From assembly GCA_050084515.1 (NCBI GenBank), contig CM114271.1, forward strand, positions 36,270,001 to 36,334,000: a stretch of DNA of 64,000 bases, read 5' to 3'. Position 1 is the stretch's first letter. Each line of letters opens with the position of its first letter. Below, piece by piece: positions 16,712 through 42,959 of the stretch. The stretch comes from Blasia pusilla. Taxonomy: Eukaryota. Under the pieces are notes generated by a model, which was given only the letters and a program-made list of their open reading frames with translations, did no database searches and had not been told where the DNA came from. The position numbers and the translations under genes are program-made.

Positions 16712-18025
16712 CTAAGGGCCACGATATCTTACACACGGTAGACAACCTCGAGGTTGAGAATCAGTGGGAATCATGCCACCTCCTTTGCTAGTGTCAATTG
16801 CCTCTATCAAAGCAACCACTTGCGCCATCTCCGGCCGTTTATCTGGATTCGGATCCCAGCACTTCCTCATCACATGTGCCAATGCGGTTGGACAACACCT
16901 CGGGATCGTCGGTCTCAAATTCTGGTGCACGACCGCATGTGTCATTTCCGTGAAGCTGAGGTCTGGATAGGGCATGTCACAGCAGTAGATCTCCCACAGA
17001 CATATTCCGAAGCTGTACACATCACATTTCCGATTGTAGGGTTTACCATCGAGAACCTCTGGGGCCATGTAGCCCAGGGTCCCCGTTTCACCGGTCATGT
17101 CTTTGGGATTGGATGCTTCTACCCGCGCTACACCAAAGTCAGCTATCTTCACATTCCTCTTGGTGTCCAGCAGCATGTTCTCACTCTTCACATCTCTGTG
17201 CACAATCTTCTGCGAGTGCAGGTACTCGAGCCCACGGGAGAGGTCTAGCGCCAGCTGAATGACGACTTTGAATGTCAGTTTCCTTCGCCGATGCCGGATC
17301 AAATAATCCTTCAGAGTACCTCCGGCAAGGTACTCCACAACCACGCAGCATATGTTGGATGCGACATGAACAAAGCCATCGCTGCCTCTCTCGAAGCTGG
17401 GAATTTGCAAGTTGGAACTTCCAATGGAGGCTCCGACGAATTTCGTCACATTGGGATGATCCAGCTTGTGCCAGACCTCGACTTCCTGCTTGAAGGCATT
17501 CCGGTAGGAATCAATTTGGACTTTGGACATGGTATCCTCCTCACCCCAATCCAGTAATTTGACTGCCACGTCCTGCCCATCGTACACTCCCTTGTGGACA
17601 GTACCGTACGTCCCGTGGGCTATCACATTCTTCAGGATCAGCTTGCTAGGATCGATTTCCCAGTCCTTCAATTTTCTACCAGAGACGGCACCCGTGCGGT
17701 TGTTCCGACTCCGATGCTTCTCCAGGGCCGCATCCAAATCCGCAAGATTCAACAGATCTGCTCTTACGTACAAACCCTGTGACTTCTTCGAGCTCTCGGA
17801 TCGTGAATGATCCAACACTTTCTCAGCCCCCGCAATCGATTCGGAACTCGCTGCTTCACCCTCTCCTCCATTCTCAGCTACAACCTTCTTCTCCATCTCA
17901 ATTCCCCTTTCTCTTGAAGGTGCAGGGCCAGCGCTTGCGCCCACCTCCTCCTTATTGTCTTCGACCCGCACCTCTTCTCGCTCATCTTTACCTTTCACCT
18001 CTGACTCATCCCCTTCTGCCACCAT
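16712..18025 (-). CDS. Raf-like (subgroup C) Ser/Thr/Tyr protein kinase resembling Arabidopsis CBC1/CBC2; intronless CDS, 437 aa
   Basis: Complete kinase domain: WEIDPSKL, GTYGTVHKG, VAVKLLDWGE, HRDVKSENMLL, DFGVAR, GTLGYMAPE. Subfamily-typical WEIYCCDMPYPDLSF and C-terminal AIDTSKGGGMIP...RGP*. Confidence 0.95.
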   Translation of the reverse strand: MVAEGDESEVKGKDEREEVRVEDNKEEVGASAGPAPSRERGIEMEKKVVAENGGEGEAASSESIAGAEKVLDHSRSESSKKSQGLYVRADLLNLADLDAALEKHRSRNNRTGAVSGRKLKDWEIDPSKLILKNVIAHGTYGTVHKGVYDGQDVAVKLLDWGEEDTMSKVQIDSYRNAFKQEVEVWHKLDHPNVTKFVGASIGSSNLQIPSFERGSDGFVHVASNICCVVVEYLAGGTLKDYLIRHRRRKLTFKVVIQLALDLSRGLEYLHSQKIVHRDVKSENMLLDTKRNVKIADFGVARVEASNPKDMTGETGTLGYMAPEVLDGKPYNRKCDVYSFGICLWEIYCCDMPYPDLSFTEMTHAVVHQNLRPTIPRCCPTALAHVMRKCWDPNPDKRPEMAQVVALIEAIDTSKGGGMIPTDSQPRGCLPCVRYRGP

Positions 18026-20005
18026 ATTTATCGACCGTTTGAGTTCCTCCCGCTATGTTTCTCAACAACCTGGCTAGCTAGCACTTGTTCCTATTCCAAC
18101 TTTGTCCCTTCCTTTCCTCCCCTATCACTTCGGTGGGCAAAAGACAGGAAAGACCCCTTTTTGAAAGAGAGGGACAGAGGGCACCTCGTCTCTTCTCCCT
18201 GCCTGGGAATGGGAATATTTATCCCTGCCCCACCTGGGGGGGCCTGTTCTCTCTCTCTCCCTCTAGGCCAATCTTAAGCAGAGCGGCAACAACCACGGCC
18301 ACAGTTGCACTGAATTTTTGCAATGCCTCGCCCCCACGATACTTGCTTCTCTCCTCTCCTTTCGCAGGGCATCAGCAGGGGGAGGTTTTCTCTCTCGTTC
18401 TCTCTCTCCTAATGCAGCTGCTGTCTGCAGCACTGCACCGATTCGTCCTGTCTATACTCCACTCCAGCCATCATAATCTAATTCGGCCTCCCGAGTCGGC
18501 AAACTCTACCACTCGGACGAACTCTAGCCGTGGACAAAACACTCCTGATTGTGGGGAGACCGCTGGGTTAGGGTTTTCAATTCTCTGACCACACTCCCAT
18601 CGCAACTCCTGCTCGTCGGTATCCTACACCTCCATCATCATCGCCTCCGCCACTCGGACTGCAGCGAATGCGAACTCCCGTCTCCCCTTCTCCTTCTCTT
18701 CTGTTTCCCGCGCTCGCATACTCTCGCTCATCCCACCCCGGCCCAGCTCCCCTCCGTCCCCCACACTCTGCATAAACATACGCAAGCTGGACGCAGCAGA
18801 TACGAGTGGCAGTAATCTCACCACCGCCACAACTGCACTGCACTACACAGTGAGCAGCACCTCCCGATCCCAAATGTTGTTCGACCGAGTCTGTCACTCG
18901 CCCACTCTCTCCGTCTCTCTGCCCCTCTCTCTCGCTCGCCTCCTCTCCGCCCGAGTCACCAACAATTGCGCAATTTCGCTCGCCAAACCCATTCACAGAT
19001 CACACGCACTGTGGAGGGAGCCCCCAACGGGGCCGGTTTTGGCCCGCGGGTTTTTTGGATCTCTATACCCCTCCCTTTGTATCCCGATGGGTTTTCCATC
19101 CAAGTTTCTATTAAAGTCGATAGATCCTGTGGCGCACAGCAGATTACAGAGCCCCTCCCGGAGCTTTTGTAGGGGACGGGTTAATTACTGTGATTTGCAG
19201 TGACCTTGAGGCCCGCCACCGATTGACGAAGCTCCGGTGAGGGAGGGAGGCTTGTCCCTGCCTGACGTGGAGCCCGACCAACACCATTCTTTCTTCCTCC
19301 AGCGGCTGCCCTCACCCCACCACCGCACGCGCCACCCGGCCCGCATTTCCTCGGCCGGGATTCTTTTCGTTTCGGCTCTTCTTTCTCCAGGTCCTGTCCT
19401 CCTCTCCCCTCCCTCCCAGCTCCGCCACCCACGGTTGAGTAAGCGAATTCAACCACAGGTCAGAAACCACACCAGATCCATCCCCGCTAACCCATCCCCT
19501 GCCCTCCCTGAGGCGGTCACGGCCCAAGATGTGTCCCCCGGCTGAACCCATCGGTCGGTCGGTCCGTGGCTCTGTGGTTACGGCCGTCGAGAGTTGGACG
19601 GTGGCGACGATGTACCGTGTCCATCCAGATCGTACATGGCGGACGGAAAGAACTGTTGCAGTCGCCTCCCCGATGAGGTGTCTGCAGTACGGGTCGATGG
19701 AGCTGTCGTTGCCTTCAACGGACGGATATTCACCGTCACGTCTCGTTGCCACGTCGTCACCCCCATCCATTTGTGGCGAATGGATGGGGGTGGATGGAAA
19801 GCAACGTACATATATCTAAACTTTCTCTTCTTTGTTAAATTCTTCATTCATGCTTCAAAGATTTTGTATCTTTAGAAGACCAAGAAAGATTTTCTTTTCA
19901 TTATGGGAAGAGACATACTTCTCATTTTCAACGGGGCATATGAGGAGAAAGGGCAAATTTTGAACAAGAGAGGGTTTGGGGAGGGGAGGACTTCTTAGAA
20001 AAAAA

Positions 20006-20179: not shown

Positions 20180-20496
20180 TTTAATATTAAGTTTGAGCAC
20201 ATCTATCTATTCTATCAATGAAAGATGCTCCTCATGATGATGGGTTCATTGGATGAGATTTGCTAAAAAAAATCTCTTCAAATAAAATCATTCAACGTCG
20301 GTGAGATCTAGTAGAGTGCCTTCGTGAGTAGTGGAAGACAGGCTCAGTAGGTCGAGGATGACCTGTTGAGGCCCCGGGAAACCTGAAAGAGCAGGTTTAG
20401 AGCCAAAACGAAGGGGAAACCTGCTCTCTCAAGTTTCCCCTTCGTTTTGGCTCATTTGGAGCCATATTGAGAAAACGTACTATTTTAGATAAGAAC

Positions 20497-20832
20497 CATT
20501 TTGAGTATATGATCGACTTTCTATTTTTGGTAAGTGGCCTTGATCTCTTACATCAGGTCAAGAGCCAAGGAGGTGACTTGGGAGCATAGGTTACCATGGA
20601 GAGAGCTTGGGAGAGGGGAGGGGTATATCTCAAGGAGAGAGAGCTTGAGAGCTCATTCTCTCTTTGTTGAACCTCTTGGCACGAGGCCTCGGAGCTATGG
20701 TCCTGCTTGCCTTGTGTGTGTAACCCAAGCCTCTCATTAGGAGAGTAGGTTTGGTTTGACTTTGAGAGAGACATGTGAGAGTGTACACATGTGAGAACTA
20801 TGGTGTTGTGAGAGAGATTGGATCTTATTTTA
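20497..20832 (+). repeat. LTR segment of the gypsy element (the 5' LTR probably begins near 20235)
   Basis: 336 bp matching the reverse complement of 29257-29592, with about 22 differences counted by eye. 20300-20520 also resembles 38985-39170. Confidence 0.85.
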
Positions 20833-23800
20833 CAAAGAGAGAATGAGTGAGTGATAGAGCTTCATGGGGGAGCTCACTGGTTTTGCAAGTTGGGGATCGT
20901 ATTCCCCGTTTAGCGCCGGCATGGGGCAACCTATCCCCATACTCAATCCCTATCAAAAATTATGCAGCGCTTCCGTGCGCCACTCTTCCACACGAAAAAT
21001 CGGCAAAGGAAACATCACAAGTAAGCGGCTCTTGCTCCGGTGAGCACTCCCATGAACCGCTAAACGGGAAATACGATCCCCAACCTCCAAAACCTGATCA
21101 AAAAGCTACCATGTAGCTTTCTGATTTGTGTTCTCACATGTTTTACATTTTCGTTGGGAGAAATCAGCGCGGAAGCGTTGCCAAATTTTGTGTAGGAGAA
21201 AGAGATATTGGGCTTTACGACAGTCCCTATCACTTTTTACTGGAATTTTTTGTTCCAAATATTTTTTTACGCTGTTGTAGATCGTGAATCTGCGCACGTT
21301 GTACAACAAATAGTGCATAATTTGGAGTTGCGAGCAAAAAGTTATGGTCAATCTTGCAAAACTGCCATTGCTAGGCGATTTTTTGGGTTAAATTGTTCAA
21401 ACCCTAAACCAACCGCCGAGCCAGCAGCGGCCGTCGCCATCATAGTCACTGTCAACGGTCGGCCATCACCATCAACGGTCCATCGTCCACTGCCACCGCC
21501 GCCTAGCGCTACTCAGAGCCGCGTTCGTCTGTTGTCCACCCTTTGGTTGCCATTGCCGCCATTACAAAGTGGAGGGTCTTCCACAACCACCGTTGATTCT
21601 CTGACTTGCGCCGCCACCACGTACTTTGGGTTGGCCGCCACCGTCATCTTAGTTTCGTCATCAACCAGTGATGGCAGGTGACCCCGGGTTATGGTGTTTG
21701 AGTTTTCATTTCATGTTGCTATGTTGTGATTGGTAGTCGCTCGACGACGATCGAGTACCGTGCCGTGACGCCCGTAGCCGCAATGCACCGCCGATTGCCG
21801 CGTCGTGCCGCTTGTGGCCGCACCGCTTCATCTCGATTGCGGAGCCGCTTCTTCACTAAGGAGTAGAGCGTGTGAATTTCTGATGAAGGAGGTATGCCCC
21901 CGAGTGCCACACCCCATTCGTGAGTGCCGTCCCGTGTCGGCAGTGCTGCACCAGACCGCTAGACCTGCACCGCACATCGAGGAGGTTTAAGCAGCTTCAA
22001 TACGAGAGGAGTACGACTTGCTAATCGGAGGAGTTGTCTTCACGACCAAGTTGGGGTCGAGATTTGCAGTTGCTGAGGAGCGACATCGACATTATTGTCA
22101 GGTTACCCATTCTGGTCTCTTACCCTACATGTGTGAGGGATTTTCGGATATTGGGAAATTATTTGGGATATTGGGTTCCATGCTAATGCTACGAGCATCG
22201 ATGATGTATGGGTTTAGGGGACATAGACTTGTCTGGGATGTCCAGAGTTGAGGATGGTTTATCGATGAGACAATAGATCGGTTGATTTGCCGCACCACGC
22301 TGGTTGTTACTGCAAAGCACATGTCTCAGTGAGAGAGTGTAGATTGACTGCCGCATGTTTAGTTTGAGTGATTGAGGGATTACTCACGAGATTGAGAGTG
22401 ATCGTGTGAGAGGGGTACGAGGGCCATCACGACGTCCTTTCGAGATTTTGAGAGGCAACGTAGTGGACCTGAGAATAGCTCTGGAGGGTTTACGCGGAGT
22501 GGTGCGAGGTTTCGAGGGTGAGAGACCACCTTGATCTCCTTCTATGTCGTCTTCAGATGAGGGGGAGCGTATAGAGGAGTGTGTTAGTGATCCACCGTAC
22601 ACATTGAGTGATCCTACCAGTTGGGCGTACGAGATGGACGACCGGGATAGAGGACCGCGTAGGTTTTTGGGTGTTGTAGGCACTATAGAGCTACACGACT
22701 TCATTGCGGAGTTTAGGAGTTGGTGTGATTCACAGTGGGCTAGGAACTCTAGAGAGTTCAACCCGTTTACATCATGGAACAGTATGTTCCAGCATTTAGA
22801 GGGGGCGCCTATGGACGATTACCATGAGTTCTCCAACAGATCTGCCCAAGAGATTGAGGCATGGCCACTCTACTATGACCCACATTATGTGTCATGGATG
22901 GAGCCGTTCCCAGATGAGGAGGAGGAGTGAGGAGAGGCTAATTCCTCTTCCACTAGTGATGTTTTAGGAGGGGTCACTTGCACTGGAGCAGTTGCACCGT
23001 CTAGTCGGGTTCGTCCCAGGTTCAACCCTGTGGTTGAGTTCTTTGCTAAGTTGAGGGCGAGTTATCAGGGATTACGGAGCATCCATGACTTCCAGAGGTG
23101 CCTGGGTGAGAGTTTGCGTGAGGCTTACACTCGCTTGCGCCGGTTGATCAACGTCACTCAGGGGGTGACAGAGGCTCAGGCTATCCAATCATGGTACGCG
23201 ATGCTGGACCGGACCCTGTGGACACGGGTGCGGGAGGGGTGCGTCTTATGAACACCTCCCCTACATTGAGAGATGTTTTTAGGACCGCCGAGAACATTGA
23301 GCGCAACATGGCGGAGGAGAGCGTAGCCACCATGGGTTCTGGGCGAGAACAGTCATGATTGTCTGCACCATCAGTGAGCAATGTGGACTCCGAGATAGGT
23401 CGACTATGGCACCACGAGCTTAGGGAGGATACCGGAAGGCCATGCCACAGAGACCTGCGCCTTCATATACGGCTCAATAGCAGCCGCCTACGACTACTTG
23501 TTGGTCATGTGATGGAGCCCATCATCAACGCGATTGCACTCGTCAGGGTCATGGACGTGTGCCTCAGCATGGAGGAGGAGATCGTACTGCGCCAGGAGGT
23601 TATCAATGTGACTATTATCAGAGGTATGGTCATACACGCGCTAGGTGTTTCAGTTTACATCCTGAATTACGTCTGGACCAAGGGCCAGAGAGGGCACTAG
23701 AGGGAGTAGCTGATCCAGGTGGGCCTAGAGATCGTGCACCAGATGGTCCCGTTGGGGGATGAGGAGCTGGAGTTTCCCGACAGGGTGGTGGAGCTTCCCA

Positions 23801-25337
23801 TGGAGGAGGTAGAGTCCCACCACCTAGACGCGTCGAGGGAGACGCCAAACGTGAGGCTGCGATGGCTGCTCACATACAGTAGCTACAGGAGCATATTGTC
23901 GGTATGGCATAGAGGTTACCCGATGCCGGATCCGTGGCATCGACATCATATGGAGCAGCTAGAGATATAGAGGATCCTGGTTGGATGTGCAAGGTTGCCC
24001 ATATGGAGGCCGCCGCTGTTGTGACGCATGGAGCAACCGCAGAGTTGGATCCACAGCGAGGGAAATCCAGGAAAGAGACTAGGCTTCCTCAATCTTTCAG
24101 GTTGTCCAAGGCAATGAGGACCCCATCGATGGGTCTTGATCAGAGTTCCTGGAGAGTTGGTGATGTTGTTGGTATGCAGGCACGGAGGGCGATGGGAGAA
24201 ACGAGCGCGAAAACTCCTATTGTTGATGCTCACGAGGGGCATGTGTCGAGCACGTTGTTGGGGACGGCCACCGTTGTGTACCGCGCTCCTTTATTTTCTG
24301 CTTCTGATGTTATGACGTTGGGAGGTACGCCCGCGGAGGTTTTTTGGTTGGCCGCTACGCTATGTGAGCGTGGAGTTGGAGTTCTTACATCACGTTTAGA
24401 GGTGATTACAGAGGAGGTGATGGACCTGCCCTTGGAGCGGATGTTGGGACCATCCACGTCAGATTCATGGCAGGCTGCTGCTTCTAGGATGGCGGAGATG
24501 CCCGCTAGACCCGCGATAGAGTAGGCCATGGTTTCTCCTGGTGTTGTGTTGCTGGATAACCATGGAGAGGTCTTCCACTTGGTGAGTCCCGGAGGTAGAG
24601 CTTTTAGTCCGCAGCGCGTCTTGTTGGATTCAGGAGCGCAACCCCTCATGTTGGGGAAAGCGTCATTCAGAGGATTGGGCTTGACAAGAGCCAATGTGGA
24701 GCGTTTTCCATTCCGGATACAGACATCCTTGGATGGAGTGAGGACCACACAGTATATCACCCAATAGGAGGTCGTGGTGAGGATTTTCCCGGGATATCCT
24801 ACAGATGAGTCCGTGGTGTGAGCCAAAGCGATAGTGACTCATGCAGAGTCCTACAATGTCTTGGTTGTTGGAGCAGTGTTATACCCGATGGGGTTTTCCC
24901 TCGATTACTAGGAGGAGTCAGCGTCCTACAGACCAAGATGGGAGTCAGGTGATGAGCTCCTTAGCTCATTACCCGTTCGATTCACAAGTGTAGTGATCGA
25001 GCAACGGCAAGGAGAGATGGCGACCTTAGCAGCATTGAGTAGTGCCATCACTTGGCCTAGTGATTTGATTGAGGGACATGTTCATGCAGAGGATACTCTC
25101 CTTCTTGACATTTCTATGGAGAGGGGTGTCATGGTAGCCGCATCAGTTCGTGGAGGAGAGGTGCGGCTTTGGGGCTTGACTGAGGAGCTTCGACGCTTAG
25201 CCATTGAGCATGTGCAGACCGCGTGGTGCGAGACATTTGGAGTTGAGTAAGACGGGTCAGAGGAACCCCAGGTAGGCAGGAGTGCTGCTATGATACCTTT
25301 GGACACCACCTCGATTGTGTGGTGCATCCCAGAGAAG

Positions 25338-26290
25338 GGTATTTGGGTGTTGGATCTCTTTGGAGGGATCAGCACTGGGTTAGCTGTTGTTTTGCACGTT
25401 GGAGTGCGCGTGCCGCAGTACCTGTATGTGGAGATTGATGATGTTGCAAGGCGCGCTTCACTTCACCATGTGGCGCTGTTATGCTTCCATTTTCCCGACT
25501 TGTTGTCTACGTCCGCCATTCAGAGTTACTAGAGTTCCCTACCAAGGGACATTTCATTCTTGGGGGCGTAGGACTCGGAGCGGGTAGGGACCATAGACTT
25601 GGTCATTGCTGGTTGGTCGTGTCAGGGCCAATCGAATGTTGGACCAGATAGCGGGTTGGCTGATACTCAGTCTAGGTTGTTTAGGGAGATGATGCGAATC
25701 TTGCGACATTTACATGAGCATCGGTCTTGTTCTCCAGCATACATTTTGGAGAATGTGCCAGTTTTGGGCCATTCTAGGTCCTGCATGATGACGAGTGCAC
25801 ATCAGGTGCGCGCATGGATCAGCCCGGCAGTGTTGTTAGATGCAGCGAGTGTGGGTTCACGAGCACATTGCCTGCGTCTTTGGTTGACCAACTTGGTACC
25901 ACATGAGGTATTGCGGAGGGCTTATGCGAGAGTGGAGCATCCCTCTGATTTGTTGGTGGATTCTATATTGGATTCGGGCCATCGATCACAAGCAATGAGG
26001 CACGATGATCGACCGCCGTTGAATGTGGTCAACCGGATTGGCAGGCCACCAGCCGCCTTTCCCACATTGGTGAGTTTTCCTGCTTCCTATGCATTCAAGG
26101 AGGCCAGACCGGGCTTGGTTTGGGATGACCAGGTACAGAGGTTGGTGGAATTCAACGCCGATGAGCGAGAGCGAGCGATGGGATTCCCCACAGGAGTGAC
26201 AGTAGTACCGTCACTATCAGAGGCATCACGACGTCATGTCTTGGGTCAAGCGATGGACCTAAACTGCTTGACATGGATTTTTAGCTTAGG
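25338..26290 (+). pseudogene. DNMT3-like C5-cytosine DNA methyltransferase domain inside the gypsy pol frame
   Basis: Motif I VLDLFGGISTG, II YVEID, III RDI, IV DLVIAGWSCQG, VI YILENV, VIII RAHCLRLWLTNL, IX ERERAMGFPTGVT, X RRHVLGQAM, in canonical order. Two in-frame TAG stops (25530, 25569). Confidence 0.88.
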
Positions 26291-26597
26291 AGTAGCTGAG
26301 CAGCGTCATTTGAGGATACGACAGATCACAGTTGTTGCGTTGGTGAGCCCCATGCCTATCGAGACGGTTGAGGCAGTGGCTGGGGGCGAGACTCGAGGAG
26401 ATTGACACACTAGGGGTGATCGGGAGAGACATCCTTGGACTTCTTGGGATGTTTTGCAGGTACGCCAGGAGATGATAGCCACAACATTGAGCGTGGTTCC
26501 GGATACTACACGTGGAGATGGGAGTTCAATTTTCCGAGATGGGGTTGCACCATAGCAACCACTGACATCCGCGCCGAAGAGTCCTATCGTAGTCACA

Positions 26598-28900
26598 ATG
26601 GAGACTTGGGAGCCAGATATGGGCCCGAAGTTGACAGGAGGAGAGCGGCGTTGGATACACCAGTTCCTTAGGAGTTATAGGAGTTGTTTTATATTTAGTA
26701 TGCATGATTTGGATACAGTGAAGGGTCCAAGGATCCGCATTGAGTTGTCGAGTGACACGCTGATCTTCCCAGGACCCTACAGGTACAGTGACATGGAGAG
26801 GGCTCTGATTCAGAGTAGGAGCCAAGACTTGGTGGGAGCAAGACTAGTGGAGATGTCGCATGGAGAGTATGCATTTCCGATTGTCATGCCCGCCAAGAAG
26901 GATGTGCATGGCAACAGGAAGGATAGGCGAATGTGTGGAGATTACTGACCTATCAATCGGCAGACGAAGTCCAATAGATATGTCATGCCCACCCCTGAGG
27001 AGATGTTTGATGCGATTGGGCATGCAAAGATCTTCAGTTCATTGGATTTGCGAGCCCAATACCATCAACTGCATATCAAATTGGAGGACATGCAGAATAC
27101 GATATTTTGGGGCATCGATCCTCACGGGAAGGATTGTTTGTACCAGTGGCGGTTCTTACCATTCACGTTAAAGAACGCCCCGGATGAGTTTCAGAGGGTC
27201 ATGGATAGGATCTTGGCAAGTCTGGATTTTGCTAGATGTTATATTGATGACATAGTAGTCTTTAGCGCCACGGTTGAGGAGCATGAACGACATCTAGAGG
27301 AGGTATTTGGACGATTGCAGTTACATGGGCTGAAGCTACATCCAAGCAAGTGCAAGTTCTTCTACAACCAGATTGAGTACTTGGGTCATACGATATACCC
27401 AGAGGGCCTTGGTGTGCAACACACGAAGGCAGAGGCTATTTCACGCATTCCACGCCCTACAGATGTGAGTCAAGTTTGTGCATTCATGGGATTGGCAAAC
27501 TTCTATTGACGGTACGTCAAGGATTTCAGTTTGATTGCGAAGCCGCTAACCTTGATGACCTAGGTGGATCAGGAGTGGCACTGGGGGGATGAGCAAGAGA
27601 GAGCATTTTAGATGCTCAAGGAAAGATTGATGTCCGCGCCCATATTGAGGAGACCGATAAGGGGACGTCCTTTCCAGTTGCATACTGATTGGAGCATGTT
27701 GTGGCTTGGAGCCTTGCTCACCCAACATGAAGATGATGGTAGAGAGTTCATGGTGGCTTATGCTAGTCGCTCGAACAATGCTGCACAGGCAAAGTATAGC
27801 TCGTATGAGGGTGAATGCTTGGCTGCAGTGTGGGCTGTCATACATTTCAGATGTTATCTATTTGGCAATCCCTTTACTAGAGAGCAAGATTGGATCTTAC
27901 AACGAGCCAGACGGTTCGGATGGGAGGGGACACATGTGGTGCGAGTTTGGAAGGATGGTAGAGTGTGTGTGGTGCCTCATCCTTCGTAGAGAGCAGGTTT
28001 GGTGCGTCATGCCCACGAGGAGTTGGGTCATTTTGGAGTAAAGCGGACGTATAGCTTGCTCTAGATACAGTATTGGTGGCAAGGCATAAGATTGACGTTC
28101 AGCAGTTTGTTGCTAGGTGCATGGTGTGTGATTGAGTTTGAGCATCGTTCAATGCTCCAACTCCATAGTTGCATGCACTTACGATCATGGGCTTATGTTA
28201 TAGATGGAGTTTGGATTTTGCAGAACCTTTGCCTTTGACGGAGCGTCATAGTCGTTATGTGTTGGTGATGGTCGAGGCAGGAAATGCAACCAACTCTATC
28301 GAAGTGGATAGAGTTGGTTGCATTGCCAGATAAAGCGAGTGAGGGAGTAGCGTATGCCTTCCTAGATCGAGTGCTGAGTCATTACGGTGCACCAGCTGAG
28401 GTGTTGACAGACCAGGGTACAGAGTTCCGCGGGGAGTTTCAGGCCTTGTGTGATCAGGCACTAATCGACCTCTGCACTACTTCGCGAGATCATCTTGAGG
28501 TGGATGGACTAGCGGAGCGGGTTGTGCGCACGGTGGAGAGAAGACTACGCAAGTATGGCTTGCAGAGAGGTCACCTAAGAGATTGGGACCTTCAGTTGCC
28601 GTGGTTGGCGATGGGATACAGATTCAGCACGCAGGCATACTTTGCGTTTTTATGGCCGTGAGCCAGATTTACCTGCGGCCATTCATCGAGATAGTGGTGA
28701 CGTGTTGAACCTTGATGACCCTGATGTATGGATGCGAGCATGTTCTGAGAGGGCTGAGTTGTTTTGGAGAGTAATACCCATGGCGTTTGAAAACTTGGCG
28801 ATTGCGTGACATCGGGATACATAGAGGTAAGCAACTACTCGAGAAGGTGGTTATCGGCCTACTATCTAGAGGTTTCATCAGAGAGAATATGTCTATTTGC
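26598..28900 (+). pseudogene. Gypsy RT, RNase H (internally deleted) and integrase
   Basis: ORF pieces 26598-26948, 26985-27509, 27612-27989 and 28284-28661 share one frame and carry RT, RNase H and integrase motifs. The tail GYRPTI*RFHQREYVYL ends at 28899. Confidence 0.92.
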
Positions 28901-29128
28901 CCAAACATGTCCAAACCCGACATTCCAGAAGAAAGTTATGAAAGAAATTGGAAACACCAAGAAAGAGGATGTGAGGAGTAAGTGAGCCACCCACCAATGA
29001 CCGCTATGGGAGAATGAGTTCGTAATGTTGGGCCCAGCCCGTATCAAAAGATCCAGAATAGAAAGAGGAATCCCTTAAATCGATGGTAACCCGGTATCAC
29101 TCTATAAGGAGAGCGCTATGTTTGAAAT

Positions 29129-29592
29129 TGTCGTGTGCATACACATCGCTACACAACATACATCGCTGTCACCGAACACACACAAAAACACGCACGATCC
29201 CATGCTAACTCATGGTGTCCAAACAACGAGACAAGAAGTAACAAAATATCTCCAATTAAAATAAGATCCAATCTCTCTCACAACACCACAGTTCTCACAT
29301 GTGTGCACTCTCACACGTCTCTCTTAATGTCAAACCAAACCCACTCTCCTAATGAGAGGCTTGGATTACAACACAAGGCAAGCAAAACCATAGCTCCGCA
29401 GCCTCATGCCAAGAGGTTCAACAAAGATAGAATGAGCTCTCAAGCTCTCTCTCCTTGAGGTATACCCCTCCCCTCTCCCAAGCTCTCTCCATGGTAACCT
29501 ATGCTCCCAAGTCATCTCCTTGGCTCTTGACCTGATGTAGGAGGTCAAGGGCCACTTACCAAAAATAGAAATTTGATCATATTCTCAAAATG
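29129..29592 (-). repeat. 3' LTR (5'-truncated) of the gypsy element, lying in the inverted segment
   Basis: Reverse-complement match to 20497-20832. It ends ...AGCGATGTGTATGCACACGACA, like the LTR-like end at ~41246. Confidence 0.8.
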
Positions 29593-29593
29593 T

Positions 29594-29934
29594 ACATATG
29601 GGATACATCCATCGTCTCTAAGGAACCATAGTGAGAGGTGGCGTTAAACATGCCATATGCGATCATCTTGAACATCCATCACACACTAGCATAGTGGCTG
29701 CACCACGGGCGGAACCACACAACATACACCGCAAGCCTGCAAGAACTATTGCTAAGCTCGGATCAATTGTACCGTCAATATTTGGAAGATGGCATGGCGC
29801 ACAGTTACGCACATGGTCCTTCCAAACCATACCATCACATTCCTCCAATAAGAGAACAACGGATGGCAAAACCTCACGCACTCTCAAGATGGTGCGCCCT
29901 GTAGTCACATCCAAGGTTGTGGGTGTCGTATTTC
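29594..29934 (-). pseudogene. Integrase C-terminal extension with a PHD finger (inverted 3' end of pol)
   Basis: TTPTTLDVTTGRTILRVRE...CMLCGSARGAATMLVCDGCSR*SHMACLTPPLTMVP*RRWMYPIC fits the C4-H-C3 PHD pattern with one Cys>Tyr change and two stops. Confidence 0.82.
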
Positions 29935-29935
29935 G

Positions 29936-32900
29936 ATTGTTTTAACAAGCTCATTCTTTTCATATCAAGTAGGTTTTCTAGTTTTTCTTCCTTCTCTGTA
30001 AGCGCCTATTTTTGTGTACAGGTTTGTTTATGTCAATTCCTCCCAAAAGTCTTCCTTGCTCTTTCAACTCCTTACCTTACTGTTTCGCCCCTACATACAT
30101 TTGCCATCTCCTTAAGGACATGAGAATTTCATATTCTTGAGCCACCTCTTCCGATACCATATAGATCACTTTTCCTTTTCAATTTCTTTTTATATTTTTC
30201 TTATAATAACTTTCAATCATAAATTTGGTGTTGCCTAATCTTCATCTCTCCATCTAAATTTCTTTTGAACGTATTCCACTACTTTTGCTTTGCTCCTTAT
30301 CCTCATGCTTTCTCCAAACCACGTTTTATATGTCTTTCCTTGTCTTCGATAACTTGCCTATTTTTACTTCTATGTCATCAGAGATGGAGTTAGATTTTCC
30401 ATCTACTCGCTTATGTGGTTTTACACCCCCTCCTACAGCCGCAACCTCTCCCCCTAGTTCACCTCCTCATCGTAGATCTCGCCATTTTCCTCCAGATTTT
30501 CCACCCATTACACTCGCTATATTTCTTCTGAATTCTCCTCTTCTCCCTTCTTCGCCTTGTCCTATTGACCCTAATCTTGATCCATTATTACCGAATCCTT
30601 CTACTTTGCCATCTCCACATATCTCATCTATGCCCTTGCTTCCAACTCCCATCTATTCTACCCAAATCTCCCCTCTTCCTCCTCCTCCTTCCCCAACCTA
30701 CTTACCCCCTCATCGTTGGCCATCACCATCTCTTGCACCTCCCACCTCCTCTCCTTGTAACCCTTCTACTTCTCCATTTGTACCAAAGGTTCGTTGCATA
30801 CCTTGTGGTAAGGAGTTTGCTCCTAATGGGATCAAAAGACACCAGCGGTAGTGTCGATCCATGCATAGGCCTTCAATCCCTAACCCGATACCATCTCCTA
30901 CTGCACTCCCCACAACAATTGCTTGGACCTAGTTAAGCCAAATTGATCTCCTTTGCTCTTTCCATCTAGGTCTTCCTCATCCTAGACTCTGCACTCGCAT
31001 TCCTATTGCTCTTCGCCCCATCACCCAACAAGCTTTGCTTTTCCCACAAGAAATGTTAGCTCGTGATCCCACAGATATCAATGCTTGGTATCTCCTATTA
31101 CTCTTCCCACAATGGGTTTTAGTCCTCCCTCCAAGGGATGGTGCAACGGGTCATCGTGAAACCTCCACATGTATTCAACTCTTTATGTATGGGGATTGGG
31201 AGAATCTTCAGAATAAGCATGTATTTCGATTAGAGGCCTTAGATGTGGCTCATCCCACTGAACATGCCAATCATGGGAGGCCTTCAATACAACAACGCCT
31301 TCGACAAAGTCTACTTTTGGGGCATATTGGTGAGTTTTCATGTGCAGCTCAAGCATTGGGTCCTCTTTCTCCGGCGGTTCCAAGTGTGGAAATAGTGGCT
31401 CTCTTAGAAGCTCTTCATCCTCCTTCAAGTGGCGATGCTCCACCTTTTGTGGAAGACTATACAACGGACCTTGACTTGGAGCTTGACTTGGAGGTTTCCA
31501 CAAGGGCTTTTCTGCATACTCCTCGCTTATCAGCAAGCGGGCTATCAAGGATGGTTTTTAAGCATCTCCGCGATTGCTTTATCCCAACAGATTTAGGAAG
31601 TGGCTTTGTCTCTCTATATAAGGTGTGTGCACATATGGCGGCAGGTCGTCTCCCATTCTCTATCTCTAGGCTCTTAGGGGCTTGTCTTTTGTTGGCTATG
31701 GATAAGCCTCCTTAAGGTGTGCGCCCTTTGGCTATTGGAGAGGTTTTATACCGCTTGGTTAGTCGATCCCTATGCTTGCAATTTCATCCACACTTTAGTG
31801 CCCACTTATTTCCTCATCAATTAGGAGTGGCAACTCCTGGAGGTTGTGAGGTTGTGGTGCATGGGATTCGCTCCACTCTTGATATTCATCCAAAGTGGGT
31901 AGCAATTCAAGTCGATGTGGCTAACGCATTCCATTCAATTTCTCATGCGGCCATCTTTGAGGAGTTACGTTGTGCAAGAGGACAACTCGCGAGCCTCATT
32001 CCATTTGTTTGCTCCTTCTATGCCTATGATATGCCCATTTTCTATTCCCATCATGCTACTTCTGGGGAATATAGTATTCTACAATTGGCTTGTAGCACAC
32101 ATCAAGGTGATGCCATGGGTGGCCCACTCTTTGCCATTGCCCATTTTTGTGCCCTTCAAGCATCACCGCAAGCATTTCCATCTTGTCTTTTCCCTTCTAT
32201 TGTTGATGACACTCACATTATAGGTCCTCCTTCTGAAGTGGTTCTTGCTTATACCCATTTCGTGGAGCAACTCTCTTTCTTAAACCTTAAAGTCCAACCT
32301 AGTAAATGTGGAGTATGGTCTCCTTCATGTCTTCCCTCATCATTCACCCCACCTACTCCTGATTTTCCCATCTACATTGAAGGGGTTAGAGTTCTTGGGG
32401 TCCCATTTGGCTTCATTGACTATGTCTCAAAGTTCTTGGATGAGGCCCTTTTGAAAGACATCGAATGGCTTCATTTGTTACCTCATCTAGGGGATCCCCA
32501 AGTGGCTTATGGGATTCTCTCCCAATGTTTTCTACAACATCTTTCTTACCTTTTCGCACTTGTCCTCCCACTTCAAGGTTCTTACATTGGTTGGCCTCTT
32601 TTGATGCTTTTATCTTGGCAACTTTTGGTCAACTTCTTGGCCCGAATACCTTTGAGGGAGAGGATGGTGTCTTTGCTTTATGACAAGCTATCTTGGCTAC
32701 TTCTTTTGGAGGGGTGGGACTGTCCTCCATAGTCGCATCTGCTCCCGCAGCCTTTTTGGGGAGTTGGGCGTTGGTAGCATCGATTATGGTTTCTCCAAGG
32801 AGATACACCTATCTTGATGGATGATATCGCCCATGTAGAGGAGAGGGACTTCTTATTTCAACAAAAATTGAGATCTGCACGAGCTCTTCTTCCTCTTGCT

Positions 32901-33655
32901 ACACAAGCAATTCTACCCCATTTTAGTCAACTGATTATGGAAGGGATTGATCGACTTCAAGAGCATATCTCCGAGAATTTGCATCAAATCAACTTTTCCA
33001 ACATTCTCTCCGAGGCATCATTTAACGCTAATCGAGCTCGTCTAGGTTCATGTGCGGGTACCAGAGCGGGGGCGTGGCTTAATCCAAATCCTCTTATTCT
33101 TCCATTTCGTCTTCCTCAAAGTATATTCTTGACAGCTTTGCGGTTACGTCTTGGACTTCCCCATCCTTCTCTCTTAGGTGTGTCGAATTGTGTATGCGGG
33201 GATGCCATTGATGCCAAGGGTATCCATATTCTCCGATGTGCACATGGTGGAGAATGAACGGCCACACATGATGTCATTAGAGAGGCGGTAGCATCGGTGG
33301 CTCATACTGCAGGATACGCCGTTGGGCAAGAGCAACTCCATGTCCTACCTTCAACCATACAAGCAACCTCTCATCGGAGAGTGGATCTTGTTATGTCTTG
33401 AAGTGGATTTTGGACACTAGGTGATGTGGTGGTTGCTGATCCAACACATTATGACTTGGTATGTCGAGCCGTACATACCAAAGGTTTGGCGGCCAAAGCT
33501 GCAGCAAGAATCGAGGAGTTAAGTTATGTTGTGAGACATGCAACTGATGGATTTATTCCTTTTGCAGTGGAAGTATTCAGTCATTTACATGTGTCTTTTG
33601 ATACTTTCTTGAAAACATGTGTTCACCACTCCCTCGAGAATCATCATCTGGCCCC
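29936..33655 (+). mobile_element. Non-LTR retrotransposon with a restriction-like endonuclease (CRE/R2-type architecture), degenerate, 3'-truncated
   Basis: Pro-rich N-terminus with zinc finger CIPCGKEFAPNGIKRHQR*C; RT motifs RPLAIGEVLYRL, QVDVANAF, HQGDAMGG, IVDDTHI; CCHC CVCGDAIDAKGIHILRC followed by HD and RRVDLV...DVVVADP. No APE-like domain seen. Confidence 0.82.
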
Positions 33656-33659
33656 TTCG

Positions 33660-34130
33660 TGTAGTCCTTCTGCTGAACACCTAACCCACTCGGGTATATG
33701 GTGTGTCCTAAGTACTCAATCTGCTCCTAAAAGAATCTACACTTGCCTGGATGTAACTTGAGTCCATGTAACTGCAATCTCCAAAATATGTCCTCTAGGT
33801 GTCGCTCATGCTCCTCAACCATGGAATTGAAGATAAGAATATCATCTGTGTAACATCATACAAAATCCAAGCCAGTCATAATCCTATCCATCACTCTTTG
33901 AAACTCCGCAGGCGCGTTCTTCAACCCAAATGATAAGAACCGCCACTAATACAAGCAATCTCTCCCAAACCGATCTATCCTCGAGAATGTTGTCTTCTCC
34001 CTATCCTCCAACCTGATAGGAAGCTGATCATAGCTAGCACGGAGATCTAAAGTACTGAATATCTTTGCATGCCCTACCGCATCAAAGATCTCCTCACGAG
34101 TAGGCATGACATACCGATCTAACCTCGTAT
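33660..34130 (-). pseudogene. RT fragment of the same gypsy family as 26950-27430
   Basis: DRYVMPTREEIFDAVGHAKIFSTLDLRA...GLKNAPAEFQRVMDRI...EEHERHLED...LHGLKLHPGKC...IEYLGHTIYP closely parallels ORF 26985-27509. Confidence 0.88.
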
Positions 34131-36499
34131 GTGGGATGGCCATTCGGCATTAACTCGCAGCGAGGCTTTAAATTCTGCTCCTTGCGAGCACATACATCCC
34201 GTGTCCATAAATCTCATTTCATACAACTCCTCCTTTCTCCTATTTGAAGTCCAACCAGTCAATAAAAATGAAAATTTGTGTTAGATTTGTGGAGAAAAAA
34301 CTATGTTATTGATGCAAGACAACAAATGTGCGCATAAATAATAGAGAACTGTACCATTTGTTTCATCTATTTGGAACGATATCTATTGATGAAATTGCTG
34401 GCGGGGTAACATCTTCGCTTGGGCTTGGTGTTGCACATGATTGTGTCCTACTACGGTGTACATTTGCATTGTCGACTCCATTTCCTTGAACTAGTTGAGG
34501 CAGAGCGGACAGGAATGGTACTCCTCCCTTGCATGAGTGAAAACAAACATATTTGATTTAGTATTGTCCTCTCCCACACAAAAAGAAATCTCAATCACAA
34601 CTAACTCAATTGAAAACTTACCCATGGTGGTTGCTGGGAGGTTTGCCCAACCGGAGGCCATTGAGGTTGAAATTGATTTTGGTAACCCATTGGACTTTGC
34701 ATCATCACGGGAAGCAACCATGGCATCTGGTTTGTTGACCATGATGGAGGGGGATATGGCTGTTGTCCAACGTGTGAAATAGACGGAGGCTTCCCTTTTG
34801 GCTGCTATTGTGAATGAACTTATTAGGGTATACTTTAAAAAACTTAATGCCAATCATCAAACTCTATAGAAACTATTGTACACAATACTACAAGCATGGA
34901 ACTTCCATCTGGTTTACGTGTTCCTCCCCTGAATTCGGAGGCTACATAGTTGATTGAAGGAGAACTTCAGATCTTGGGGGAAAAGACACTGGATCCATCG
35001 TTGTAGGCTGCCAACAAGCAACCAACAAATGAGTATAGATCAACTCTTCGGCAAATGAATGTCAGTGGCATGAAGGAATGCCAAAATAACTCAAATGAAA
35101 TGAATTTACCCTCCCATCTTCTAGCCAATTCTCATCATCATCATCTGATGTATAGTGTCACATATCGGATATTGGCTTGTAATCCTGGTCTTTTGATTTG
35201 GTGTCTTGGCTGCATTCAGCTTCAAATATAAGTATTTGAAGATTCCCTTTCCCTTCCAACCGCACACTCCGCCCTGGTTGAAGACATGGATTACATTCAT
35301 GAAGGGACTTGCGAGGCTTCACAACCCTCGGCTTGTTGAACCTTTCAATTATACAAACAACCATATTAGGAGAGAGAGAGATAGAGAGGCATCGGGAACT
35401 ATAATAAGAGACATATGTACAAGGTCCTCATCAAAGTAACAGAGATCAGATCAGAAAAGCAATAATTTCCAATTGCAAATTGCACTCAAGCTGTTTTTGT
35501 AAGTATGCAGCGGATGACTTCATCGCTATACCTACCTCGGTTTCTCCCAAAGGCTACTAGAATTTCTAATAAGCTCCATCGGATATGATTGGAAATTTTT
35601 GGACACTTCACTGGTGTGCAACTTCCCTCCTACACTCGGCTTCACCTTGAGAATGATCCGAGGCTCATGATTATCCTATGAGGCCAACTGACTAGAACAA
35701 CTGGGAAAAATACACAAGTTGAAGTGTCCATCTCACCTGATGTACAACGTTTACGTGAAATGTGCCAACGACTTTCCGCAACACAACTGAATATGGAGCT
35801 ACGAGCTCTTCGCCACTCACATAGCGCTTCTTGCCAATGGACATGTGAAAGCTTTGGTTCATATTCCACTACAGAGGTTCTATTTCTCTCGAAGGAATCG
35901 ATGGCTTCTTGTTCACGGGTGGAAACAAAAAAGCGGAAAAACAAGGGCGCCGAGCAGTCGATGCAATGCGGGTTGAGTTCAGGTTTCTCACCTGAAGTTC
36001 ACTTGGAGTCTGAGTTGACGACAATGATACCAATCCCTAAGGCACATACATTCCCTTTTGCATTTCCAGCTTGCTCGCCAATGTGCCACAAACATTAGCA
36101 TTCCCTTCCCCCGGTGCAAACCTTCACGGCCCTCTGTTCCTCACTACTCTCGAGCTCCCTGCCTGCAACGCCCACGCAATGTCTCCCTCCATTGCAAGTC
36201 GACTCGAAACTGGACCCAAACCTCCGGTCACGTCAACATGGTTCGAAATGCCTTGTCACGATGGACCATGTGCCACTTCAGCAAGGTGAGAATGCCCCGT
36301 CACTCTTCTTAGCAGCAAAGTGGGGGGGTTGGACTTCAACTTATTTACTTACCAAGAAAGATTTGCACATGGAAAAACAACATCTACCAACGGCTCTCAC
36401 CAATCCACCATAAGCAACGAGTTCTTACCAACACCTTTTGATAAACACTAAGCCACTACCCAATAGTCTTCTCAACTGTAATTTTTTTCCGGGGTCATC

Positions 36500-41818: not shown

Positions 41819-42959
41819 GTAGAGGCCTAAGCATCATCCCATCCCACTAAAGGTGCAAATACATCAATTGTTTTGATGTAGCCTAATTTTGGGGTAAATT
41901 GGTGAGTTTTCAGGTGCGGCTTGAGCATTGGGACTTTTCTCTCTAGTTATTTTTCATAGAGTCCAACCTCTACTTCACCTAGCTTCACCAAAAAAGACTC
42001 CCAAACTTTAGGTTTGCGAGTGGAAGACTCAAGTGATTGTGTGTTCCGTAAGTAGTCGAGAAGCCACCAAACACTAATCGGGTTGAGTCTCCCCAAATGC
42101 GTATTGTCTCCCTAGGAAGCCTCTTCCCCAAATCTTGGCCAATCTCCCCAAGTTACTCGTCTACACCAAAGCACGTTGGTTAATTCTTCAAGGTGTGTCC
42201 TCTAGCTTAAACATGAAACTCGGCCAAACACACATTATGGTTAGTTCCTAGTTCAAAGACTTGAGTGAGTAGGGAGGGAGAGTGTTCCCCCCTCCCCCCA
42301 ACAAGAGTTACTTCTAGGGTTCTATGGAGAAACCCCATCTTCCCTATTATCCCCCTTGGACCCTTGATTTTGCCCTCAACCCAAATGTAGTTTACAACTT
42401 ACGGACCCGCATTTGACTAGTTATCCATGAAGATGGCTTGGTGAAAGCTTTCTGCCAATTATGCAACTCTCGACTCCCTAAACACCTCTTGGAGCTTGGA
42501 CGTGCGTGTCATGTGTCTCATATCTAGTATCCGTCTTGACTCATTGTTTTGATTTTGATGGTTATCTTGCCGCCCTTTGCATTTTGTGATTAGTCTTATG
42601 GCGTCTCGCCCATCTTGACTCATATGTTCCTTGCTTCTTGCCCTTGACTAAGCACTCAACTCCAAGATTTAGTGTTTGAAATCTTTCTTGCCTTGCTTTT
42701 GTCCTGCGAGTAGCCACACGCCTTTCTCGCATGAGATTAGTTACAAGACACGTGCACGTTTTGCTTAGCGTTAGTCGTGTGGCCGGTTCCGCCGCCCTTC
42801 CTAGTCTTGTGACTACTTATTCTAGGTTCTGAATTTGGTGGGTCATACCAAGGTCTTTTCTCCTTGGACTTGTGATAATGAATTGCTTCCCGGATCCCCG
42901 CTAGCGCACATGGGATAGACTTAGCTATTTGTGAGGCTATTCTAAATGAGGACATAGAG

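What the first reader, a model, noticed from the sequence alone, without database searches (positions are those of the whole stretch)
29594..29934. The same element ends in a PHD finger: a possible chromatin reader-plus-writer retroelement
Seen: a C4-H-C3 PHD finger (29728-29594) lies immediately before the 3' LTR and, after undoing the inversion, follows the integrase tail. Known: chromoviruses carry a chromodomain at this position that guides integration; PHD fingers read histone H3 tails; animal DNMT3 pairs its catalytic domain with the PHD-like ADD domain. Inference: this family may combine histone-mark-guided targeting with its own de novo methyltransferase.
Basis: partly seen in the sequence, partly recalled or inferred. 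Interest (0 to 1): 0.75.

Follow-up and report, generated by a model that had tools for sequence, protein, structure and literature searches.

The report
Histone-reading finger on retrotransposon integrase
This is a real but broken histone-reading zinc finger at the tail of the integrase of a dead plant jumping gene whose family also carries a DNA methyltransferase; the two sit on opposite sides of a conserved stop codon, so they probably work as separate tools (choosing where to land, and marking the new DNA) rather than as one reader-writer enzyme.

Summary
The PHD finger at 29728-29594 (minus strand) is real (Pfam E 1.3e-8) but dead here: two stops and one lost Cys. It lies in an inverted, deleted 3' end, so its contact with the repeat is a scar. 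In other copies it ends the integrase frame. 28 of 37 methyltransferase-picked loci carry it downstream.

The family is a Ty3/Gypsy lineage with a DNMT3-like domain and A-coding-B-A-B split repeats, like KnitGypsy-Dnmt3 of Klebsormidium. Named relatives occur in Marchantia, Calypogeia, Sphagnum and Coleochaete.

The DNMT3-ADD analogy fails. A conserved in-frame TAG-CAACCA (stop in 42 of 47 and 14 of 14 alignments; TMV-type readthrough context) ends Gag-protease-methyltransferase, so RT-integrase-PHD needs readthrough. The finger lacks the H3K4me3 cage and keeps the H3 A1/R2 pocket residues. It most likely tethers integration to chromatin; binding is untested.

Copies end TG...CA with 4-bp target duplications and hold an internal palindromic B|A joint, hinting at an unusual integration route. 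PHD-bearing Gypsy elements, and chromodomain-plus-methyltransferase LTR elements, are in print. This scan noted the lineage before in moss genomes. New variant of a known kind.

The parts
20298..20832 (+). 5' repeat A (first about 19 nt missing in this copy)
   Evidence: Matches the A repeat at both ends of other copies; 94% inverted match to 29257-29550
20912..21094 (-). Small inversion in the 5' leader, relative to other copies
   Evidence: Opposite orientation in L012, L014, L019, L024, L030
22600..24000 (+). Gag-like region, frameshifted, with two decayed zinc-knuckle-like motifs; limits approximate
   Evidence: Read from translation; no Pfam hit; colinear with other copies
24610..24910 (+). 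Aspartic protease (LDSGA motif at about 24627); limits approximate
   Evidence: Motif; no Pfam hit here; relatives hit Asp_protease_2 and gag-asp_proteas
25341..26300 (+). DNMT3-like C5 cytosine methyltransferase, broken by stops; motif IV reads SC here, PC in most copies
   Evidence: PF00145 E 3.5e-7; a sister-family copy matches DNMT3A best in the PDB, E 5.8e-8; motif tallies
26553..26561 (+). Conserved in-frame stop TAG followed by CAACCA: end of ORF1 and probable readthrough site
   Evidence: Stop in 42 of 47 family-1 and 14 of 14 family-2 alignments; neighbouring codons 10 of 1034 and 0 of 308; consensus UAG-CAR-YYA in PMC3542737
26916..27395 (+). Reverse transcriptase
   Evidence: RVT_1 E 2.9e-24
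27582..27878 (+). RNase H; about 420 nt deleted right after it in this copy
   Evidence: RT_RNaseH_2 E 7.2e-30; gap at 27877 against other copies
27981..28900 (+). Integrase: zinc-binding domain, core and start of the tail, cut by the inversion at 28900
   Evidence: Integrase_H2C2 E 1.6e-8; rve E 1.4e-6, below its curated cut-off
28901..29128 (-). Probably the former right flank, carried along in the inversion (inferred)
   Evidence: No match to other copies; begins right after the element's end
29129..29256 (-). Terminal repeat B2; the element ends in ...GACA
29257..29592 (-). 3' part of repeat A2; joined to the PHD by a deletion of about 480-505 nt (polypurine tract, B1, start of A2)
29594..29728 (-). 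PHD finger, last domain of Pol; two stops and one lost Cys in this copy
   Evidence: PF00628 E 1.3e-8; ligand positions; PDB matches
29729..29929 (-). Integrase C-terminal stretch that links the core to the PHD
   Evidence: Follows window position 28900 directly in other copies and is in frame with the integrase

Best explanation
The stretch is the inverted, decayed 3' end of a Ty3/Gypsy retrotransposon of the KnitGypsy-Dnmt3 kind in what is probably a liverwort genome.

Shown: gene order Gag-PR-DNMT3-[conserved TAG-CAACCA]-RT-RNaseH-IN-PHD-stop; split repeats A...B-A-B; TG...CA ends; 4-bp target duplications; PHD kept under purifying selection between families.

Inferred: (1) Ribosomes mostly stop after the methyltransferase, so Gag-PR-MTase is the abundant product and RT-IN-PHD is made by occasional readthrough (about 0.8). 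(2) After protease processing the PHD stays on integrase and binds the free histone H3 N-terminus (A1, R2), not H3K4me3, tethering the integration complex to chromatin as chromodomains do in chromoviruses (about 0.6). (3) The methyltransferase acts separately, most likely in the particle on the element's own cDNA (about 0.5). Reader and writer are two tools of one element, not one histone-guided enzyme.
For: PHD hit. IN and PHD share one open frame of 410 codons that ends one residue after the last Cys, in a natural sister-family copy (Pfam rve plus PHD, no chromodomain). 28 of 37 methyltransferase-picked loci have the PHD downstream on the same strand, 27 of 31 among those with an integrase core. 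In 80 metagenome loci, 31 of 35 with enough upstream DNA have the methyltransferase before RT. pN/pS of the PHD is 0.19 between the two families (49 pairs), against 0.86 among dead family-1 copies (21 pairs). The stop is conserved, and many database ORF1 proteins end shortly after the methyltransferase while Pol proteins begin just before RT. The nearest solved fingers include PHF12, Lid/KDM5 PHD1, DPF3, CHD4, BHC80, AIRE and UHRF1; none of the H3K4me3 readers ING, BPTF or TAF3 is among the best 60 of 68. Gly, not Trp, stands two places before the His ligand (43 of 48, 17 of 17, 69 of 69); Asp after the third Cys and the P-x-G-x-W motif are kept. These match KDM5B D328, P347, G349 and W351 (PMC4225485 passages). 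A PHD-bearing Chlamydomonas Gypsy inserts in intergenic DNA 2.6 times more often than expected (PMC9940879 passages).
Against: No binding, targeting, readthrough or methylation was measured. The acidic residues just before the first Cys that define H3K4me0 readers (PMC3241642) are missing here (the residues read A-G-L-R), so K4 selectivity is open. In the metagenome loci only 3 of 36 frames have a strict stop-CARYYA; 20 have stop-CAACCC, one base off, 2 have stop-TAACCC, and 11 show no such site in frame. An AUG lies 3 to 27 codons after the stop in most families, so reinitiation is possible. Some relatives have one unbroken ORF (P0172, P0221, P0228, P0239). Readthrough would still give a transient polyprotein holding both domains. 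The K. nitens domain was inactive in yeast. The Chlamydomonas bias may reflect selection, as its authors say.
Confidence: 0.65

Rival explanations
1. Coupled reader-writer: the PHD guides the methyltransferase to chromatin, as ADD does for DNMT3, through an unprocessed readthrough product or through contact in the integration complex, so that new copies or their flanks are methylated on landing.
For: The two domains co-occur across the lineage. In a sister clade (45 proteins RT-RH-MT-IN-PHD) the methyltransferase sits about 95-145 residues before the integrase zinc motif and may share a mature protein with the PHD; P0033 and P0079 keep PC and EN motifs. DNMT3A and DNMT3L fingers also belong to the unmodified-H3K4 class (PMC3241642).
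Against: In this family a conserved stop plus RT and RNase H separate the domains. Five proteins have MT-RT-RH-IN without a PHD, and two (P0071, P0075) have RT-RH-IN-PHD with no methyltransferase hit. In the named volvocine relatives the methyltransferase has lost PC and ENV while the PHD is kept.
Confidence: 0.2
2. The PHD is not a targeting device. It serves particle assembly, integrase folding, nuclear import or binding of a non-histone host protein.
For: The K4-binding acidic residues are absent. A review title and abstract list atypical PHD targets (PMC10124903, search listing only). PHD fingers occur at unrelated positions in several element types (PMC8557442 passages).
Against: Residues of the H3 A1 and R2 pockets are kept across families and in 87 of 92 database fingers for the Asp. 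The position is the one chromodomains take.
Confidence: 0.2
3. The finger is a chance neighbour: a host-gene fragment or another element brought next to the repeat by the inversion.
For: In this copy it is on the opposite strand from pol and abuts the repeat through a deletion.
Against: The same order IN-PHD-PPT-B-A-B recurs in many copies, in a second family and in other species.
Confidence: 0.01

Closest known systems
KnitGypsy-Dnmt3 of Klebsormidium nitens (de Mendoza et al. 2018, PMC5890265; read: abstract, first of seven parts, passages, sections 10 and 11; three supplementary files searched by term; main supplementary PDF and figures not seen)
   Same: Gypsy domain set, DNMT3-related domain, repeats arranged as in DIRS elements (Fig. 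4c legend; A-coding-B-A-B defined in Fig. 1e legend). K. nitens proteins KFL_015960010 and KFL_005000010 are IN-PHD relatives at 54% identity.
   Different: Here in a land plant, in thousands of first-look candidates (not a copy count). The paper's text has no 'PHD' (0 occurrences) and places the DNMT inside the Pol ORF, whereas here a conserved stop follows it. Target duplications and the palindromic joint are not in the passages read. I could not show that the two K. nitens IN-PHD proteins come from KnitGypsy-Dnmt3 copies.
Gypsy-7a_cRei and other PHD-bearing elements of Chlamydomonas (PMC9940879, PMC8557442, PMC6673714; passages read; REM1 seen only as a citation)
   Same: Gypsy polyprotein with a PHD finger, already proposed to steer or soften insertions.
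   Different: No methyltransferase is listed for Gypsy-7a; kinship with this lineage was not tested.
EpiLTRs (bioRxiv 10.64898/2026.05.21.726589; passages read; supplements closed)
   Same: One LTR element with a chromatin reader and a cytosine methyltransferase.
   Different: Reader is a chromodomain, the DNMT is sister to DNMT4, and a DAM domain is also present; found in Cymbomonas and Euglena. The authors treat streptophyte Gypsy-DNMT3 as a separate capture.
Chromoviruses (chromodomain on the integrase C-terminus; role taken from passages)
   Same: Reader domain at the end of integrase.
   Different: No chromodomain here; split repeats; methyltransferase present.
Animal DNMT3A/B with ADD domain
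   Same: Catalytic domain is the best PDB match; both fingers fall among readers without an aromatic cage.
   Different: The finger here is a canonical PHD at the far end of Pol, behind a stop codon, RT, RNase H and integrase.
Type I stop-codon readthrough of tobamoviruses (PMC3542737; passages read)
   Same: A-UAG-CAA-YYA context ahead of a polymerase frame.
   Different: Here it follows Gag-protease-methyltransferase in a retrotransposon. Its use by the SIRE1 retroelement is recalled, not from a call.

Membership tests
PHD finger (PF00628) | C4-H-C3 zinc ligands and Pfam score above cut-off | tested here: met
   35.1 bits against 24. This copy has 7 of 8 ligands. In the younger family each ligand is kept in 15-17 of 17 alignments.
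H3K4me3-reading PHD fingers | Aromatic cage with invariant Trp | tested here: not met
   Gly two places before His in 43 of 48, 17 of 17 and 69 of 69 alignments; no Trp there in 92 database fingers. The position of the cage Trp in the sequence is recalled; its invariance is from PMC3241642.
Unmodified-H3 (H3K4me0) reading PHD fingers | H3 A1 pocket (P-x-G-x-W), hydrophobic residues before Cys3, Asp for R2 | tested here: met
   mapped on KDM5B residues through the alignment and passages
Unmodified-H3 (H3K4me0) reading PHD fingers | Acidic residues just before Cys1 that bind K4 | tested here: not met
   A-G-L-R precedes Cys1; 57 of 92 database relatives do have an acid within six residues
Unmodified-H3 (H3K4me0) reading PHD fingers | Measured binding to H3 peptides | not testable with these tools
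   Needs a binding assay
Ty3/Gypsy retrotransposon | Order PR-RT-RH-IN with a DDE integrase | tested here: met
Ty3/Gypsy retrotransposon | Two equal LTRs at the ends and a tRNA primer site | tested here: not met
   A-coding-B-A-B. No TGG-type primer site is visible after A1 (read by eye). TG...CA ends, polypurine tract and target duplication are present.
Chromovirus | Chromodomain at the integrase C-terminus | tested here: not met
   ORF ends one residue after the PHD; no Chromo hit
KnitGypsy-Dnmt3 lineage | DNMT3-related domain with catalytic motifs | tested here: met
   Best PDB matches DNMT3A/B, then DRM2 and M.HhaI. Family 1: Cys 47 of 53, Glu 47 of 49, Asn 47 of 49. No DNMT tree was built.
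KnitGypsy-Dnmt3 lineage | DIRS-like split repeats on a Gypsy domain set | tested here: met
   PHD-B-A-B in 18 of 37 loci; both ends in L011/L012, L013/L014, L162, and metagenome loci L103, L126
KnitGypsy-Dnmt3 lineage | Phylogenetic grouping with the published K. nitens copies | tested here: inconclusive
   Published copies were not retrieved; only IN-PHD fragments from K. nitens at 54%. The RT-RH tree (quick method) holds neither those nor this genome's copies.
DNMT3-ADD-like reader-writer enzyme | Reader and catalytic domain on one mature protein | tested here: not met
   Conserved stop, RT, RNase H and integrase lie between them. Processing sites were not mapped.
DIRS/PAT tyrosine-recombinase elements | Tyrosine recombinase instead of DDE integrase | tested here: not met
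   rve and Integrase_H2C2 hits, no recombinase hit in full-length relatives; 4-bp target duplications

The most novel reading that the evidence does not exclude
A Gypsy lineage, old in green plants and present in the model liverwort Marchantia, runs a life cycle unlike textbook LTR elements. It makes a DNMT3 at capsid-protein levels ahead of a leaky stop, to methylate its own cDNA. Its DDE integrase does not use the ends left by reverse transcription but cuts an internal palindrome (GACA-GC-TGTC at the B|A joint) of an end-joined or circular cDNA, giving A...B-A-B copies with 4-bp duplications. Its PHD finger steers that complex to chromatin with free H3 tails. In the sister clade, where the methyltransferase abuts IN-PHD, reader, writer and integrase may be one protein.
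Probability: 0.3. Interest if true: 0.78.

Novelty: new variant of a known kind. Interest (0 to 1): 0.5.

Why it matters
Retrotransposon DNMT3s are in print for algae and dinoflagellates. Here the lineage is abundant in a land plant and has close relatives annotated as hypothetical genes in Marchantia polymorpha (59-75% identity in the methyltransferase), where chromatin and methylation maps can test targeting directly. The conserved stop gives a concrete prediction on how much enzyme is made and where it acts. The split repeats with an internal palindromic joint bear on the old question whether a DDE integrase can use a circular or end-joined substrate. The PHD on its own is ordinary: PHD fingers on retrotransposons are called widespread in print.

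Tried and rejected
Chance neighbour or host-gene fragment: rejected.

Hidden chromodomain in the deleted 490 nt: rejected; intact copies stop right after the PHD and the lost DNA holds the polypurine tract and repeats.

Simple two-LTR circle opened at either of two equal joints: not enough. It predicts A-B-A at the 5' end of half the long copies, and 0 of 23 5' ends with an A repeat show it.

Several Pfam scans used the wrong frame and found nothing; they were redone. Gag and protease of this copy gave no Pfam hit.

The RT-RH tree is the quick version; the careful search did not finish, and it holds database proteins only.

Paper searches for prior description. None of the listings or passages read described DNMT3 plus PHD in a land-plant Gypsy, a split-repeat Gypsy other than KnitGypsy-Dnmt3, or this readthrough site (0 papers). 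The library lacks most subscription journals and Repbase reports. The main supplement and Fig. 4c of PMC5890265 could not be seen and may show the PHD.

No structure or complex prediction was run: a PHD with an H3 tail would pass by likeness to solved structures. No expression data were looked up. CpG depletion of the element (0.70) is no stronger than in the rest of the window (0.63), which says nothing about self-methylation.

Full report
Observation. Read on the minus strand with stops as X, 29570-29938 matches Pfam PHD over the whole profile (E 1.3e-8, 35.1 bits, cut-off 24). The ligands run from Cys 29728 to Cys 29596. The seventh is Tyr, and stops at 29665 and 29620 break the finger. The feature is real and this copy is dead.

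Setting. On the plus strand the window holds repeat A (20298-20832), a decayed gag, a protease motif, a C5 methyltransferase (PF00145 E 3.5e-7), RT, RNase H and integrase. The integrase breaks off at 28900. Of the 17 copies covered by the 20 stretches fetched, most continue from that point within a few bases into the sequence that is inverted here (29929 down to 29590), in the integrase frame. A natural copy of a second family has IN and PHD in one open frame of 410 codons, ending one residue after the last Cys; Pfam finds no chromodomain. The contact with the repeat is not native: about 480-505 nt are deleted at 29590. The host has nine large contigs, and the closest named proteins are from Calypogeia, Riccia and Marchantia, so it is probably a liverwort (inference).

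Co-occurrence. One search gave 41 methyltransferase matches (40 of 5,871 first-look candidates scored). I left out the window, one partial duplicate, and two copies already held (L011, L013; both have the PHD), and fetched 6 kb for the other 37. The PHD lies downstream on the same strand in 28 of 37, and in 27 of 31 with an integrase core. In 80 metagenome loci picked by IN-PHD, 31 of 35 with at least 2.5 kb before RT have the methyltransferase within 2.6 kb; two of the four misses have it at another distance or were scored against a second RT.

Selection. Pairwise pN/pS for the PHD is 0.19 between the two families (49 pairs), 0.25 against metagenome copies (35 pairs) and 0.86 among family-1 copies (21 pairs). 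For the methyltransferase it is 0.35, 0.34 and 0.61 (synonymous sites near saturation, pairs not independent). Both domains were kept by selection while the families were active.

The methyltransferase. A family-2 domain matches DNMT3A best in the PDB (E 5.8e-8), then DNMT3B, DRM2 and M.HhaI. In family 1 the catalytic Cys is kept in 47 of 53 alignments, and Glu and Asn of motif VI in 47 of 49 each. Close relatives are Marchantia polymorpha hypothetical proteins at 59-75%, with Sphagnum fallax and Closterium further off. Activity is untested; the K. nitens domain gave none in yeast, which the authors call inconclusive (PMC5890265 section 10).

A stop between writer and reader. At 26553 an in-frame TAG is followed by CAACCA. 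A stop stands there in 42 of 47 family-1 and 14 of 14 family-2 alignments, and CARYYA follows in 42 of 47 and 13 of 14. Neighbouring codons are stops in 10 of 1034 and 0 of 308. UAG-CAR-YYA is the type I readthrough consensus (PMC3542737 passages). In metagenome loci 3 of 36 frames fit strictly (CAGTTA, CAATCA, CAACCA), 20 have stop-CAACCC, 2 stop-TAACCC, and 11 show no site in frame. Database proteins agree: many of 1,230-1,450 residues end shortly after the methyltransferase, and many of 1,010-1,170 begin just before RT and end in the PHD. A few relatives have one unbroken ORF. Reinitiation at a nearby AUG is a rival, though L106 shows no Met in the roughly 95 codons printed after the stop. 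Either way the methyltransferase belongs to the Gag ORF and the PHD to integrase. This is the main reason to reject the DNMT3-ADD likeness for this family.

What the finger could read. The best PDB matches include PHF12, Lid and KDM5 PHD1, DPF3, CHD4, KAT6A, BHC80, AIRE and UHRF1 (68 sequences, 60 shown). Two places before the His ligand, where H3K4me3 readers have their cage Trp (position recalled), Gly stands in 43 of 48, 17 of 17 and 69 of 69 alignments. The Asp after Cys3, the Met-Leu before it and P-x-G-x-W are kept; in KDM5B these bind H3 R2 and A1 (PMC4225485 passages). The acidic residues before Cys1 that bind unmodified K4 (PMC3241642 passages) are absent. Prediction: a binder of the free H3 N-terminus, not of H3K4me3, with uncertain K4 selectivity.

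The ends. Full copies read A-coding-PPT-B-A-B (PHD-B-A-B in 18 of 37 loci). They start TG and end CA. A 4-bp target duplication is exact in 10 of 10 family-2 copies with both ends (12 examined). Of 14 family-1 copies it is exact in 8, one base off in 3 and absent in 3. The inner B|A joint holds both termini with a 2-nt spacer in 35 of 39 genome joints and 22 of 22 metagenome joints; with GC it is the palindrome GACA-GC-TGTC, and AC, GT and AT are what deamination of GC would give (inference). The A|B joint varies in 4 of 10 long family-2 copies, twice with letters like those that follow A1. This fits a route in which the reverse-transcription ends (B start at the PPT, A end) are joined and integrase cuts the inner palindrome. 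Against the simplest circle model, none of 23 5' ends shows A-B-A. The route stays open.

Spread. IN-PHD relatives are named from Calypogeia, Marchantia, Riccia, Sphagnum, Klebsormidium, Coleochaete, Haematococcus, Volvox, Pleodorina, Tetrabaena, Astrephomene and Chromochloris. Among 172 database proteins, 45 read RT-RH-MT-IN-PHD, 6 MT-RT-RH-IN-PHD, 5 MT-RT-RH-IN, and 18 RT-RH-IN-PHD (mostly ORF2 products). A quick RT-RH tree of 77 of them splits the two methyltransferase positions into two groups (SH-aLRT 100, midpoint root). In the named volvocine proteins the methyltransferase has lost its catalytic motifs; two unnamed ones keep them about 95-125 residues before the integrase zinc motif. 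A true one-protein reader-writer is more likely there than here.

What is known. KnitGypsy-Dnmt3 has a DNMT3 in a Gypsy with DIRS-like repeats (PMC5890265); its text does not mention a PHD, but Fig. 4c and the main supplement were not visible. PHD fingers on retrotransposons are called widespread (PMC6673714 passages; bioRxiv 2021.11.30.470311 passages). Gypsy-7a_cRei carries one and shows an intergenic bias (PMC9940879 passages). EpiLTRs join a chromodomain with two methyltransferases (bioRxiv 2026.05.21.726589 passages). PMC12344493 (passages) repeats that DNMT3 elements are known from streptophytes and dinoflagellates. Nine searches showed no description of this combination in land plants or of the readthrough site. 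Earlier notes of this scan report the same lineage, its PHD and its split repeats in moss-like genomes; I saw them after reaching my reading and take them as leads only. A look-up for the readthrough site found no note.

Verdict. Real domain, real family, ordinary as a single part. The package (land-plant DNMT3 Gypsy, PHD-tipped integrase, leaky stop, split repeats with a palindromic joint) is a new variant of a known kind. Interest 0.5.

Noticed in passing
window 30258-33761 (+) and about 41850-44780 (+): Two decayed copies (70-81% alike) of a non-LTR retrotransposon: RT (RVT_1 E 1.5e-10) followed by a cysteine-histidine motif and a stretch that looks like a restriction-like endonuclease (label recalled, not tested).
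   Followed up: partly
window 33671-34131 (-): RT fragment of another member of the same Gypsy lineage, 74% alike to 26961-27421.
   Followed up: partly
window 10106-12479 (-) and 16715-18052 (-): Host genes: lipoyl synthase (LIAS_N, Radical_SAM) and a protein kinase ending about 2 kb or less before the element.
   Followed up: no
window 112-723 (-): Copia-type pol fragment (Pol_BBD, gag_pre-integrs).
   Followed up: no
window 51668-57352 (-): Long open frames of 441, 196 and 773 codons with no Pfam hit; unexplained.
   Followed up: no
window 13892-14107: Three or more tandem copies of a 65-nt unit between the two host genes.
   Followed up: no
L025 1-4303 and L148-L163: A second, younger family of the same design (copies 96-97% alike, 67-76% to family 1). 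No copy among the 16 fetched has an unbroken pol.
   Followed up: yes
L148, L151, L154: Short form A-coding-B with a perfect 4-bp duplication in 3 of 10 family-2 copies with both ends; may come from B-B recombination or from a one-repeat intermediate.
   Followed up: partly
L155: A family-2 copy sits in a tandem array that looks like 5S rDNA (recognised by eye, not tested).
   Followed up: no
L015, L016, L018, L021, L024, L025, L026, L027, L029, L030: Many copies are nested in or inverted against other copies of the lineage; could reflect targeting or retention. No control was run.
   Followed up: no
P0020, P0021, P0025, P0095: Volvocine relatives keep the methyltransferase-like domain before IN-PHD but have lost PC and ENV motifs: candidate pseudo-enzymes.
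   Followed up: partly
P0052: Chromochloris-labelled IN-PHD protein with a weak adenine-methyltransferase hit in its tail (PF02086 E 0.0027, below cut-off).
   Followed up: no
P0193-P0203, P0206, P0217, P0222, P0223: Marchantia polymorpha 'hypothetical proteins' with a DNA_methylase domain (e.g. Mp_4g09160, Mp_8g17980) look like ORF1 of this lineage; they could inflate counts of host methyltransferases.
   Followed up: partly
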